Below, in pieces: positions 23,065 to 24,969 of a stretch of DNA of 37,247 nt; position 1 is the stretch's first letter, and each line of letters opens with the position of its first letter. Source of the DNA: a virus; the IMG/VR virus record IMGVR_UViG_3300045988_069188; one strand, written 5' to 3'. The notes beneath the pieces are model-generated. The model was not told where the DNA came from. It did not search any database and saw only the letters and a program-made list of their open reading frames with translations. Both the position numbers and the translations under genes were made by a program.

Positions 23065-24969
23065 ATGAACAAGAGACAGAAAGAAGTAATCGAGGAACAA
23101 CTGCATAACGAGAAAAAAACTATAGCCAGTCTGAAGAATACATATAAGCAGGCACTGAAAGATTGCGAGCAGAAGATCAGAGAGTTGTCTGCAAGAACTG
23201 ACATGGAGAATTTGCAGAGCATCATATACCAGAAACAATATCAGGAGGCTTTGAAAGCACAACTTGAAGGTGCTCTAAGCAACTTGCAGTCTAACTCATA
23301 TGCAACTGTGTCTGACTACCTGACCAAGTGCTATAGAGACGGATACACAGGTGTCATGTATGACCTGCAAAAGACAGGAATACCCATTATCATGCCGATA
23401 GATCAGGCGGCAGTTGTGAGAGCTATTCAGACGGACAGCAAGCTCAGTAAGTCACTCTACGACAAAATGGGCGAGGATGTGACATACCTCAAGAAAGCAG
23501 TTAGGGCAGAGGTATCAAGGGGTATAGCCAATGGATCAACATGGAATGAAGTAGCTGGTAAGCTTTCACGGCATATGGCAAATACACCATTCCAGAGGGC
23601 TTATAACAATTCTATCCGCATTGCAAGAACTGAGGGGCATCGTATACAGGTACAGTCGGCTATGGATGCTCAAAAGATAGCTAAGAGTAAAGGAGCGGAC
23701 ATAGTAAAGCAGTGGGACTCTACGCTTGACGGCAATACAAGAGATCTGCATAGACTGCTTGATGGACAGATTCGTGAAATAGATGAACCTTTTGAGGTTG
23801 GTGGTCGTAAGGTCGAGGCTCCTGGGATGTTTGGAGATCCGGCAGAGGATTGTAATTGCCGGTGCTGCTTATTGCAGAGAGCAAGATGGGCATTGGATGA
23901 TGATGAGCTTCAGCGACTGAAAGACCGAGCGGAATACTTCGGGTTGGATAAGACGACAGACTTTGAGGAGTACAAAGAGAAGTATTTGAAAGTGATTGAT
24001 GAAATAAATCCTACAAATGTAAATGGAGAAATAATACAGTTTGATTGGAAGGATAAAAATCAATTACGTGAAAAACAGCAGGAAATTATATCAGATCTGT
24101 CAAATGAGTACAGGACAAGGCTTCAGAAAGTTACGACAGGGGCAAAACAGTCAGCCGGTAATGTTGATATGTCAGGTGCAGTGATGAGATTATCGGATTC
24201 ACATGTTAACACTGCTGTTCATGAATTTGCACATACGCTTGCAAATAGTGCAGCAGATAAGTACGGCCTTACTAATGATGCAGATTTTTGGAAAGAAATA
24301 AAAAAAATACAAAGAGAATATCACAGAGATGTTGATAAAACATCAGATACATCAAGATGGATCAGTTCATATGAACATAGTAGTAGAAGTGTTGACGAAT
24401 TTTTTGCCGAGGCATTTACACAGGCAAAAATGTCTAAACTTAAATTGGAATTACCTCCCAAATATGGTGCTGATTTGACATATTCAAACAAGGTATTGGA
24501 AGTCATTGATAAGTATTTCAATAAAAAATCTGTTGCAAATGTGGATACAAGTGCTAAAATGATAACAGGTGCAAGAATATTGGACCCTGATAGTAAAGAG
24601 GCTACGGCATTTGCTAAAATGTACTATCGTGAAATAAAATCATTTAGTACAGATTGCAAACATATAGCAAATAATATAGGAAAAACGGAAACGGAAATAC
24701 AGAGCATAAAAGATTATTTATTTAATAATGATTCTTTTGAACCTGATTGCGCTATTGCACAATCATGGCAAAGACTTATGAGTGGTAAGGATATTAAGGA
24801 TCATGATAAAGTATTAATCGAGCATGAATTGTATGAGATGAAGTTGAAGAAAGAAAATAAAAATATGAGCCATACTGAGGCTCATGCTATTGCTACCAGA
24901 AAATACGATTATCAAAAGGGAGTTGATGAATATTATGGTAACCTTGGAAAAAATAAAAAAGACGAATAA
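23065..24969 (+). CDS. Minor head protein (SPP1 gp7 / Mu F-like) fused to an anthrax-lethal-factor-like zinc metallopeptidase domain and a further C-terminal domain
   Basis: 634 aa. MuF core at aa ~100-275 (IARTEGHRIQ...WDSTLDGNTRDLHRLLDGQ...FGDPAEDCNCRCC). HEFAH at aa 386-390 (nt 24220-24234). SSYEHSSRSVDEFFAEAF at aa 434-451 matches the LF third-ligand motif EFFAEAF. Aa 495-634 are unassigned. Confidence 0.85.
   Translation: MNKRQKEVIEEQLHNEKKTIASLKNTYKQALKDCEQKIRELSARTDMENLQSIIYQKQYQEALKAQLEGALSNLQSNSYATVSDYLTKCYRDGYTGVMYDLQKTGIPIIMPIDQAAVVRAIQTDSKLSKSLYDKMGEDVTYLKKAVRAEVSRGIANGSTWNEVAGKLSRHMANTPFQRAYNNSIRIARTEGHRIQVQSAMDAQKIAKSKGADIVKQWDSTLDGNTRDLHRLLDGQIREIDEPFEVGGRKVEAPGMFGDPAEDCNCRCCLLQRARWALDDDELQRLKDRAEYFGLDKTTDFEEYKEKYLKVIDEINPTNVNGEIIQFDWKDKNQLREKQQEIISDLSNEYRTRLQKVTTGAKQSAGNVDMSGAVMRLSDSHVNTAVHEFAHTLANSAADKYGLTNDADFWKEIKKIQREYHRDVDKTSDTSRWISSYEHSSRSVDEFFAEAFTQAKMSKLKLELPPKYGADLTYSNKVLEVIDKYFNKKSVANVDTSAKMITGARILDPDSKEATAFAKMYYREIKSFSTDCKHIANNIGKTETEIQSIKDYLFNNDSFEPDCAIAQSWQRLMSGKDIKDHDKVLIEHELYEMKLKKENKNMSHTEAHAIATRKYDYQKGVDEYYGNLGKNKKDE

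What the first reader, a model, noticed from the sequence alone, without database searches (positions are those of the whole stretch)
23065..24969. MuF (gp7-like) minor head protein fused to an anthrax-lethal-factor-like zincin domain: virion-delivered effector candidate
Seen in the sequence: the gene after the portal module is 634 aa, roughly twice the length of a plain gp7/MuF protein. Aa ~100-275 carry the MuF core. Aa 386-390 are HEFAH (nt 24220-24234). Aa 434-451 read SSYEHSSRSVDEFFAEAF (EFFAEAF at nt 24397-24417). From memory, the anthrax LF catalytic centre reads HEFGH ... SYGRTNEAEFFAEAF, so the motifs, their order and the upstream Tyr correspond, with slightly longer spacing here. A further ~140 aa (495-634, with IEHELYEM...HTEAH) is unassigned. 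Established: SPP1 gp7-type proteins are packaged in the capsid bound to the portal and leave with the DNA. MuF domains fused to C-terminal toxin or enzymatic modules have been described in temperate phages as MuF polymorphic toxins or polyvalent proteins. Inference: this is a protease injected with the genome that cleaves a host target, such as a defence or signalling protein, or acts as a toxin. The substrate is unknown.
Basis: partly seen in the sequence, partly recalled or inferred. Interest (0 to 1): 0.7.

Follow-up and report, generated by a model that had tools for sequence, protein, structure and literature searches.

The report
Phage head protein carrying swappable effectors
A gut-bacterium prophage encodes a capsid-internal "MuF" protein carrying two swappable add-ons, a zinc-protease domain of a kind already known in such proteins and an uncharacterised domain that always comes with its own small partner gene, probably a toxin and its antidote.

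Summary
ORF 23065-24969 encodes a 634-aa protein with a MuF core (Pfam E=1.5e-16), HEFAH at aa 386-390 and EFFAEAF at aa 445-451.

**Module B (aa ~310-488).** It is a genuine zincin-type domain: the catalytic residues are invariant and the AF2 model has pLDDT 94. It is not a demonstrable anthrax-LF family member. Pfam ATLF and Peptidase_M90 hits fall below threshold, and Foldseek finds no LF match. MuF-metallopeptidase fusions were already described (Jamet 2017; Iyer 2017).

**Mosaic structure.** The gene is a three-part mosaic with sharp recombination breakpoints. In other phages B sits terminally or ahead of at least 16 unrelated tail modules, including ADP-ribosyltransferases and PBECR nucleases.

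**Module C (aa ~502-634) and gene S (24935-25183).** The "unassigned" C-terminus is a widespread all-alpha domain with 1,807 50%-identity clusters. Its fold is unmatched and it has an invariant His/Asp/Glu cluster. It is strictly coupled to an overlapping 82-aa gene, S. S follows 67 of 68 distinct C carriers and none of 58 B-only carriers. S persists when C is deleted, and the two co-diverge (r=0.88). This is the signature of a toxin-immunity cassette.

**Verdict.** A new member of the known MuF polymorphic-toxin / polyvalent-protein class. Toxicity, packaging and injection are inferred, not shown.

The parts
23065..24969 (+). Whole gene: 634-aa MuF-family protein built from three modules (A-B-C)
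   Evidence: ORF and translation. The exact protein is present in NCBI/JGI/ENA as 'hypothetical protein' on contigs up to 524 kb.
23065..23943 (+). Module A: MuF / SPP1-gp7-like carrier domain (aa 1-293; Pfam core aa 145-269 = nt 23497-23871)
   Evidence: Pfam Phage_Mu_F E=1.5e-16. TIGR01641 phageSPP1_gp7 is weak. PHROG 595/115 head proteins. 85-97% identical in relatives that carry other C-termini.
23944..23988 (+). Conserved end-of-MuF junction LDKTTDFEEYKEKYL (aa 294-308); first recombination breakpoint
   Evidence: The same motif precedes Gln_amidase, PBECR2 and other zincins in close relatives. Nucleotide identity to L008 collapses at ~23950-23980.
23992..24528 (+). Module B: zincin-type metallopeptidase cassette (aa ~310-488). 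HEFAH at 24220-24234, Tyr436 at 24370-24372, EFFAEAF at 24397-24417
   Evidence: Invariant H386, E387, H390, E445, E449. AF2 pLDDT 94.3, pTM 0.90 with zincin-like secondary-structure order. Sub-threshold Pfam M90 (27 of 35 relatives) and ATLF (13 of 35). GC 32-37% against 45-48% in the MuF core. Replaced as a block in L008.
24523..24567 (+). Conserved pre-module linker KKSVANVDTSAKMIT (aa 487-501); second breakpoint; predicted disordered
   Evidence: The motif K-x-[VIL]-[AE]-[NK]-x3-5-[SG]-x-I-[IM]-x-[ST] precedes module C in all carrier contexts. Similar linkers follow B ahead of unrelated tails. pLDDT <50. Identity to L088 drops from ~24520.
24568..24966 (+). Module C: all-alpha terminal domain of unknown fold (aa 502-634). 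H580-D581 at 24802-24807, H587/E588/E591 within 24823-24837, H607 at 24883-24885
   Evidence: 1,807 representatives at 50% identity, at or near the C-terminus in all 150 listed. Carriers are Phage_min_cap2 or Phage_Mu_F. Invariant residues over 146 sequences. AF2 model has 7 helices, pLDDT 83.5. No PDB, BFVD, Pfam or NCBIfam match.
24915..24922 (+). Shine-Dalgarno AAAGGGAG for gene S, 12 nt upstream of its ATG
   Evidence: Read from the sequence.
24935..25183 (+). Gene S: 82-aa protein overlapping the last 35 nt of the MuF gene; candidate immunity protein or inhibitor of module C
   Evidence: The family N-terminus MV[IT]LKNIKK fixes the start. It equals WP_118483540.1, an 82-aa hypothetical protein. 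It is directly downstream of 67 of 68 distinct C carriers and 0 of 58 B-only carriers. It is retained where C is deleted. It co-diverges with C, r=0.88. No Pfam or PDB match.
25182..25268 (+). Two tandem terminator-like hairpins (25182-25211 and 25239-25261, the second followed by a T-run). The downstream cassette boundary lies between them.
   Evidence: RNA fold -26.3 kcal/mol, z=-5.2. The scanner reports the second hairpin. Identity to L088 returns to 95-100% from ~25240.

Best explanation
The gene encodes a MuF-family polymorphic effector ('polyvalent') protein of a temperate Lachnospiraceae phage. The N-terminal MuF domain is the carrier. By homology with SPP1 gp7 it should place a few copies inside the capsid at the portal, so that they leave with the DNA (inferred). 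Two independently exchangeable, AT-rich cassettes are fused behind it.

Cassette 1 is a catalytically intact zincin metallopeptidase of a phage-specific clade whose nearest curated families are MtfA/M90 and anthrax-LF/ATLF. It has no partner gene. Across phages it is terminal in 31 of 70 distinct carriers and sits ahead of another module in the other 39. It is therefore either a processing peptidase acting on the protein itself or a second effector with a harmless-to-producer host substrate. I cannot separate these two readings.

Cassette 2 is module C plus gene S. C is a probable metal-dependent enzyme with an invariant HD...HExxE...H cluster and is the toxic or effector moiety. S is its cognate inhibitor or immunity protein, translated from an overlapping, SD-led gene. 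S would protect the producing cell and/or lysogens.

Shown here: domain identities, residue invariance, cassette boundaries, C-S coupling and co-divergence. Inferred: packaging, ejection, toxicity, and direct C-S binding.
For: MuF domain above the Pfam threshold. Temperate context: integrase at 184-1332, and terminase, portal, scaffold and MCP around the gene.

Module B:
- Invariant HExxH, Glu and Tyr.
- High-confidence zincin-like model.
- Consistent sub-threshold M90 and ATLF hits.

Modularity:
- MuF+B, MuF+C, MuF+B+C and min_cap2/VG15 carriers all occur.
- Close MuF relatives carry Gln_amidase, PBECR2 or other zincins at the same junction.
- B is terminal in 31 of 70 distinct carriers and followed by C or at least 15 other tail families, including ADPrib_exo_Tox and PBECR2, in 39 of 70.
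- Nucleotide breakpoints lie at ~23950, ~24520 and ~25240, with low GC across both cassettes.

C-S coupling:
- S follows 91 of 92 C loci (67 of 68 distinct proteins) and 0 of 64 B-only loci (0 of 58 distinct).
- In the reverse search, 55 of 60 S loci have C. The 5 exceptions are C deletions that keep S.
- Pairwise identity of C against S gives r=0.88, Mantel p=0.001, compared with r=0.56 for C against its own upstream 300 aa.
- L088 has B at 97% and MCP at 99% identity, but C at 36% and S at 33%.
- The same arrangement occurs in Clostridium phage CDMH1 gp4/gp5 and Streptococcus phage Javan551.

Literature:
- The zincin MPTase is the commonest hub domain of phage polyvalent proteins (PMC5512222).
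Against: - No experiment or homology shows that module C is toxic or even enzymatic. It has no match in Pfam, NCBIfam, PDB or BFVD.
- In the carriers sampled, C occurs only in phage head proteins. It was not seen shared with other polymorphic-toxin families, which is a usual hallmark of toxin domains.
- S matches no known immunity family.
- Adjacent genes co-inherit, so part of the C-S correlation reflects linkage.
- Packaging and ejection are extrapolated from SPP1 gp7, which is only weakly similar (TIGR01641 scores below its cut-off).
- The gene is not immediately next to the portal gene.
- Foldseek did not recover any zincin significantly for module B. The fold assignment therefore rests on secondary-structure order, motifs and weak HMM hits.
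Confidence: 0.62

Rival explanations
1. One reading: the zincin (module B) is the principal effector. It is an LF-like protease injected with the genome that cleaves a host defence or signalling protein, and module C is an accessory.
For: All catalytic residues are invariant. B is the terminal module in 31 of 70 distinct carriers. The nearest families include the toxin LF. LF-type metallopeptidases are recognised polymorphic-toxin domains (PMC3482391). The pre-C linker occurs in proteins with no peptidase at all, so B is not needed to release C.
Against: B has no cognate partner gene. It is internal in 39 of 70 carriers, ahead of unrelated effector modules. LF-family membership tests fail. No substrate is known.
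Confidence: 0.3
2. Module B is a self-processing (releasing) peptidase. It cuts the polyprotein at the conserved linkers in the capsid or after ejection, freeing module C or other tails.
For: B holds a hub position ahead of at least 16 unrelated tails. Conserved disordered linkers flank it. It has no immunity gene. This role was proposed for MPTases of polyvalent proteins and for the PVC-metallopeptidase (PMC5512222; PMC3482391).
Against: MuF+C proteins without any peptidase are common (P0040, P0054, L165). B is terminal in 44% of carriers. No cleavage has been demonstrated.
Confidence: 0.3
3. C and S are not a toxin-immunity pair. They are a structural or assembly pair, for example a DNA- or portal-binding C-terminal domain with a small chaperone or head-completion partner.
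For: C is found only on head-internal proteins. Foldseek gives weak XRE/HTH-like hits. There is no known toxin homology. The genes sit inside the head-morphogenesis operon.
Against: Phages with 99% identical capsid protein lack C and S (L163) or carry a 36%/33%-identical allele (L088), so the pair is dispensable and fast-evolving. An invariant His/Asp/Glu cluster suggests catalysis. S is kept after C is deleted. The cassette is AT-rich with sharp breakpoints.
Confidence: 0.2
4. The protein is the capsid (prohead) maturation protease, as the PHROG 595 and RefSeq labels 'head maturation protease' suggest.
For: PHROG 595 matches aa 1-483 at E=6e-58. No other protease gene is evident in the head module.
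Against: Relatives with 96-99% identical scaffold and MCP have no zincin (L163) or a different one (L008). B also rides on unrelated carriers and stands alone. From general knowledge, SPP1-type heads need no prohead protease.
Confidence: 0.04

Closest known systems
MuF polymorphic toxins (Jamet et al. 2017, PMC5576092) and phage-type polyvalent proteins (Iyer et al. 2017, PMC5512222)
   Same: An N-terminal MuF carrier encoded in the packaging/head module of a temperate phage. Variable C-terminal effector modules, including metallopeptidases. A small ORF directly downstream. Abundant in the human gut. The zincin MPTase acts as a hub domain.
   Different: This protein has a tandem zincin plus a terminal domain (C) that is in no curated library. 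The partner S family is undescribed. The gene is separated from the portal gene by two extra ORFs.
Anthrax lethal factor catalytic domain (Pfam ATLF PF07737; PDB 1J7N) and Tox-ALFMetallopeptidase of polymorphic toxins (Zhang 2012)
   Same: HExxH, a Tyr 7-9 residues before the distal Glu, and an identical EFFAEAF heptad. The order of elements is the same. There is a weak ATLF HMM hit spanning ~120 residues.
   Different: The hit is below the Pfam threshold. hhalign aligns only the EFFAEAF helix. Foldseek gives no match. The module is ~180 aa without LF's other domains. It is delivered by a phage head, not by PA, PVC or T2SS.
MtfA / Peptidase_M90 (PF06167)
   Same: This is the best-scoring curated family (E=1.2e-4; 27 of 35 relatives hit it). 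It is a gluzincin with HExxH and a distal Glu-helix. One relative (P0007) carries a precomputed PF06167 hit.
   Different: The score is still below the gathering cut-off (22.2 against 26.2 bits). MtfA is a cytoplasmic regulator-binding peptidase, not a virion protein.
CdiA-CT/CdiI and Rhs-CT/RhsI toxin-immunity cassettes with a demarcating motif (VENN, PxxxxDPxGL)
   Same: A variable C-terminal domain and the adjacent small gene are exchanged as one unit behind a short conserved junction motif. Orphan immunity genes persist after the toxin is lost.
   Different: The carrier is a capsid-internal phage protein. The junction motif (K-x-[VIL]-[AE]-[NK]...I-[IM]-x-[ST]) is different and its role is untested. 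Toxicity has not been demonstrated.
SPP1 gp7
   Same: It shares the MuF domain and a gene in the portal-scaffold-capsid module.
   Different: gp7 is a single-domain protein with no effector extension. Similarity here is modest (TIGR01641 scores 22 bits against a cut-off of 39.65).

Membership tests
Phage_Mu_F / MuF superfamily | Pfam PF04233 match above the gathering score | tested here: met
   61.6 bits against 29.6, aa 145-269
Phage_Mu_F / MuF superfamily | Gene immediately downstream of the portal gene in the packaging/head module | tested here: inconclusive
   The gene is in the head module between portal and scaffold, but two ORFs (21046-23063) separate it from the portal gene.
MuF polymorphic toxin (Jamet 2017) | C-terminal extension beyond the MuF domain that is polymorphic among close relatives and includes recognised toxin domains | tested here: met
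   Gln_amidase, PBECR2, ADPrib_exo_Tox, DUF6883 and other zincins occur at the same junction or behind B.
MuF polymorphic toxin (Jamet 2017) | Small ORF (<150 aa) immediately downstream, a candidate immunity gene | tested here: met
   The 82-aa gene S at 24935-25183 is strictly linked to module C.
MuF polymorphic toxin (Jamet 2017) | Encoded by a temperate phage or prophage | tested here: met
   Integrase at 184-1332. The exact protein occurs on bacterial contigs up to 524 kb. Lachnospiraceae genome hits.
MuF polymorphic toxin (Jamet 2017) | Toxic activity neutralised by the downstream protein; delivery with the phage DNA | not testable with these tools
   This requires expression, rescue and virion proteomics.
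Zincin (gluzincin) metallopeptidase superfamily | HExxH on a helix plus a third ligand Glu on a following helix, conserved in the family | tested here: met
   H386, E387, H390, E445 and E449 are invariant in 35 sequences. Both motifs lie on predicted helices.
Zincin (gluzincin) metallopeptidase superfamily | Core fold: N-terminal helix, mixed beta-sheet, active-site helix, Glu-helix | tested here: inconclusive
   The AF2 secondary-structure order fits. Foldseek gives only an astacin at E=2.7, TM 0.30. Model coordinates could not be inspected.
Anthrax LF family (Pfam ATLF PF07737) | Match above the gathering score | tested here: not met
   17.6 bits against 27.4. 13 of 35 relatives hit it, all sub-threshold.
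Anthrax LF family (Pfam ATLF PF07737) | Sequence or structure similarity to LF domain IV beyond the short motifs | tested here: not met
   hhalign aligns 14 columns, probability 24%. The module-B profile finds no LF in PDB sequences. Foldseek lists no LF.
Peptidase_M90 (MtfA, PF06167) | Match above the gathering score | tested here: not met
   22.2 bits against 26.2. 27 of 35 relatives hit it at E<=1.
Known toxin or immunity families for C and S (Pfam Ntox/Tox/Imm, NCBIfam, PHROGs) | Any profile match | tested here: not met
   C: no match. S: no match apart from the function-unknown PHROGs 5106 and 36787, hit by other family members.

The most novel reading that the evidence does not exclude
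Module C and protein S are a previously undefined, very widespread toxin-immunity (enzyme-inhibitor) family dedicated to capsid-delivered phage effectors. C would have a new all-alpha fold and an HD...HExxE...H metal site. The conserved K-x-[VIL]-[AE]-[NK]...I-[IM]-x-[ST] linker would be the phage counterpart of the CdiA 'VENN' demarcation motif, serving as the recombination and/or cleavage site for cassette exchange among gut Firmicutes phages.
Probability: 0.45. Interest if true: 0.6.

Novelty: new member of a known kind. Interest (0 to 1): 0.42.

Why it matters
MuF toxins are proposed, but barely tested, as a way for temperate gut phages to deliver proteins into bacteria along with their DNA. 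This locus gives a clean natural dissection of such a protein. It has two cassettes with mapped breakpoints. One is a zincin whose role (processing or effector) can be tested with a single E387A mutation. The other is an abundant, unnamed domain with a dedicated partner gene. If C/S is a toxin-immunity pair, it adds a new enzyme fold and a new immunity family found in more than a thousand 50%-identity sequence clusters, so far seen on phage minor head proteins, mostly from gut-associated Firmicutes phages. It also gives annotators a rule: a small gene overlapping the 3' end of a long minor-head-protein gene may encode an immunity protein. The zincin fusion on its own is not new.

Tried and rejected
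- Whole-protein and module-profile searches of PDB sequences found no LF or MtfA. The only hit was neurolysin's HExxH region at E=0.7.
- Foldseek of the B model against PDB gave nothing significant. Foldseek of the C model against PDB and BFVD gave nothing significant, only low-probability XRE/HTH-like hits.
- hhalign of module B against a single LF sequence aligned the motif only. An attempt to build an LF-family alignment failed because the word-indexed search returned LF alone.
- I considered module C as an ADP-ribosyltransferase (R...STD...ExE-like spacing). I rejected this because the model is all-alpha and there is no ART HMM hit.
- I considered a Cys protease or deamidase using Cys562. 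I rejected this because the Cys is not conserved in distant members.
- I considered HD-domain, PLA2, HEPN and SLT readings from the motifs. None is supported by any profile or fold hit.
- Jamet et al.'s supplementary domain tables are not held as searchable text, so I could not learn which metallopeptidase families they recorded.
- Promoter-like sites in the region do not exceed the shuffled expectation, so nothing can be said about separate expression of S.
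Full report
**1. The observation**

The window carries a single 634-aa ORF at 23065-24969 (+). 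Pfam places Phage_Mu_F at aa 145-269 (E=1.5e-16, above threshold).

The surrounding genes are those of a temperate siphovirus-type head module:
- integrase, 184-1332 (-)
- small terminase, 17808-18302
- large terminase, 18299-19558
- SPP1-type portal, 19565-21043
- scaffold, 25341-26030
- major capsid protein, 26041-27066

Two ORFs of unknown function (21046-22320 and 22320-23063) separate the portal gene from this gene. A small gene overlapping its 3' end was overlooked.

**2. Three modules**

I searched 5.8 billion proteins with aa 300-634 and mapped the hits back onto the query. The protein is a mosaic of three parts:
- **A:** the MuF carrier, aa 1 to about 312.
- **B:** aa about 314-488.
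- **C:** aa about 488-633.

B alone ends many MuF, Phage_min_cap2 and VG15 (PF25310) proteins and also stands alone (P0014, P0010, P0022, P0008). C alone ends MuF and min_cap2 proteins that have no B (P0040, P0054, P0084). A few proteins have both B and C (P0001, P0005, P0028, P0095).

**3. Module B is a zincin, but not demonstrably an LF-family member**

In an alignment of 35 relatives (18-70% identical to the window sequence), H386, E387, H390, E445 and E449 are invariant and Y436 is nearly invariant. AlphaFold2 gives a confident model (pLDDT 94.3, pTM 0.90). Its element order is N-terminal helix, small sheet, HExxH helix, then Glu-bearing helix, which is that of the zincin core (core as described in PMC5512222).

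Scanning the isolated module against Pfam gives Peptidase_M90 (MtfA) at E=1.2e-4 and 22.2 bits, against a cut-off of 26.2. ATLF scores E=3.4e-3 and 17.6 bits, against a cut-off of 27.4. Of the 35 relatives, 27 hit M90, 13 hit ATLF and one hits Peptidase_Mx, all weakly.

The stricter tests of an LF relationship fail:
- A module-B profile finds no LF or MtfA among PDB sequences.
- hhalign against LF aligns only 14 columns around EFFAEAF, with probability 24%.
- Foldseek returns nothing significant. The best hit is an astacin at E=2.7, and LF and MtfA are absent.
- An LF-family alignment could not be assembled.

B is therefore an intact gluzincin of a phage-specific clade. Its nearest curated neighbours are M90 and ATLF, and it is a member of neither by their own criteria. 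The E(F/x)(F/x)AE(A/x)(F/Y) helix also recurs in the other zincins found at this position: ETIAEAF, ECFAETF, EYIAESY and ETFAEGF. It is thus a clade-level signature and not a specific tie to LF.

**4. B is a hub cassette**

Among 70 distinct B-carrying proteins in IMG/VR contigs, B is terminal in 31. It is followed by C in 12 and by at least 15 other tail families in 27. Tails tested against Pfam include ADPrib_exo_Tox (E=1e-12 and 6e-18), PBECR2 nuclease and DUF6883; several other tails contain a second HExxH by inspection.

Lachnospiraceae genomes encode MuF domains 42-88% identical to this one. After the conserved junction LDKT.(D/E)FE(E/D)(Y/F)K.KYL (aa 294-308 here), some of them (50-87% identical) carry Gln_amidase (Tox-PL1), others PBECR2, and others different zincins.

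Terminal-B genes have no B-specific partner. For 18 of the 31, the next gene is HK97-gp10-like; for 4 others it resembles a scaffold protein by eye (not profile-tested).

**5. Module C and gene S**

An exhaustive profile search finds 1,807 representatives of C at the 50%-identity level, 1,123 of them at E<=1e-10. In the 150 listed, the match ends at or within about 30 residues of the C-terminus. The long carriers are Phage_min_cap2 or Phage_Mu_F proteins, sometimes with an Mx-like zincin or a PBECR3 nuclease in between.

C is predicted to be all-alpha with seven helices (pLDDT 83.5). It has no significant match in PDB, BFVD, Pfam, NCBIfam or PHROGs. Over 146 sequences the following residues are 98-100% conserved: Y521, D530, K549, F553, S567, W568, R570, H580-D581, H587-E588, E591 and H607. 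This suggests a metal-dependent active site, but that is inference. Cys562 is not conserved in distant members.

Immediately downstream lies ORF 24884-25183. Family alignment places its true start at ATG 24935, at the conserved N-terminus MV[IT]LKNIKK. This start is preceded by AAAGGGAG at 24915-24922, gives an 82-aa product, and overlaps the MuF gene by 35 nt. NCBI's own model of the identical protein (WP_118483540.1) is also 82 aa.

I ran an iterative profile seeded with this ORF over all ORFs of 161 loci. The results:
- S was found directly after 91 of 92 C-bearing genes (67 of 68 distinct proteins).
- S was found after 0 of 64 B-only genes (0 of 58 distinct proteins).
- S was found nowhere else in those loci.
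- The single miss is Streptococcus phage Javan551. Its downstream ORF is homologous to CDMH1 gp5, which is itself a member of the family.

Searching from S instead, 55 of 60 loci have C ending at S. The five exceptions belong to two lineages in which C has been deleted and S kept. In one, the head gene ends with a zincin, a gap follows and then S. In the other, the MuF gene stops at "...SGIITSGG*", exactly where C would begin.

Pairwise identities of C and S across 51 distinct pairs correlate at r=0.88 (Mantel p=0.001). For C against the 300 aa upstream in its own polypeptide, r=0.56. S has no Pfam or PDB match.

**6. Cassette boundaries**

Contig L088 is 90-100% identical to the window from 23080 to about 24520 and again from about 25240 onward (MCP 99%). 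It is only 40-65% identical in between, with C at 36% and S at 33% amino-acid identity.

Contig L008 diverges only across about 23950-24520. There a different zincin (HEMGH...EYIAESY) replaces B, while C (79%), S (65%) and the capsid genes (93-99%) are retained. L163 has the same capsid genes and neither B nor C.

GC content falls from 45-48% in the MuF core to 32-37% in B and 29-32% in C+S. It returns to 43-47% in the scaffold and MCP genes. Two stable terminator-like hairpins follow S (25182-25211 and 25239-25261). The downstream breakpoint lies between them.

A conserved, predicted-disordered linker precedes C in every carrier context: K-x-[VIL]-[AE]-[NK]-x3-5-[SG]-x-I-[IM]-x-[ST] (aa 487-501 here). 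Similar linkers follow B ahead of unrelated tails.

**7. Interpretation**

The locus fits the MuF polymorphic-toxin / polyvalent-protein class (PMC5576092, PMC5512222, PMC3482391). The defining features are a MuF carrier, polymorphic C-terminal effectors, a small downstream gene and a temperate gut phage.

The strict one-way coupling (C is essentially never without S, but S survives without C), the co-divergence and the block exchange together form the classical signature of a toxin-immunity pair. I therefore assign the effector role primarily to C and the inhibitor or immunity role to S.

B is an active-looking peptidase with no partner gene. Two readings of its role cannot be separated here:
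- **Processing peptidase.** Its hub position and the flanking linkers favour this.
- **Host-directed effector.** It is terminal in 44% of carriers, and MuF+C proteins exist with no peptidase at all.

The "head maturation protease" label of PHROG 595 is not supported, because near-identical capsids occur with and without B. Packaging at the portal and co-ejection with the DNA are extrapolated from SPP1 gp7. Jamet et al. themselves present delivery as a hypothesis.

**8. Novelty**

What I could not find in any curated library or in the papers read is module C, its partner family S, and the junction motif.

The exact proteins are already in public databases as "hypothetical protein". Overall this is a new member of a known kind. 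It is a well-resolved natural example and points to a candidate new toxin-immunity family.

Noticed in passing
window 21046-23063 (+): Two ORFs (424 aa and 247 aa) sit between the portal and MuF genes, where MuF genes normally abut the portal gene. They have no Pfam hit. The 424-aa ORF hits only function-unknown PHROGs and the 247-aa ORF hits none. The region is AT-rich (34-41% GC) and only ~45% identical in phages whose flanking head genes are 76-99% identical, so it looks like another hypervariable insert.
   Followed up: partly
window 25182-25268 (+): Two tandem terminator-like hairpins lie directly after gene S, in the middle of the late head operon and ahead of the scaffold gene (dG -26.3 kcal/mol, z=-5.2). 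The C+S cassette boundary lies between them.
   Followed up: partly
window 24523-24567 (aa 487-501); also loci L010, L016, L090, L097, L109, L133, L161: A conserved linker motif, K-x-[VIL]-[AE]-[NK]-x3-5-[SG]-x-I-[IM]-x-[ST], marks the start of the exchangeable terminal module whatever that module is. It is reminiscent of the VENN-type demarcation motifs of CdiA toxins.
   Followed up: partly
L208, L209, L214, L226 (S at ~2501-2725); L228 (S at ~2501-2710): Orphan S genes. Module C has been deleted (in L228 the MuF gene stops exactly at the start of C), but S is retained intact.
   Followed up: yes
L008/L009 2363-4450; L088/L089 3062-4999: Natural 'swap' variants of this very phage. L008 has a different zincin (HEMGH...EYIAESY) in place of B. 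L088 has the same B (97%) but a C/S allele only 36%/33% identical. These are ready-made controls for experiments.
   Followed up: yes
window 1408-2976 (-): A 521-aa protein next to the integrase has a C-terminal T5orf172/MUG113 (GIY-YIG-like) domain and a strong match to function-unknown PHROG 1847. It may be a lysogeny-module accessory or defence gene.
   Followed up: no
L001 (Streptococcus phage Javan551 3203-4661); L002 (Clostridium phage CDMH1 gp4-gp5, 2903-4604): Cultured or catalogued phages carry distant (~30% identical) versions of the C+S pair, annotated only as hypothetical or minor head protein. CDMH1 gp5 overlaps the end of gp4, as S does here.
   Followed up: yes
window 26041-27066 (+): The major capsid protein matches Pfam SU10_MCP only weakly (E=1.4e-4, below the cut-off), so the capsid protein is a divergent lineage.
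   Followed up: no
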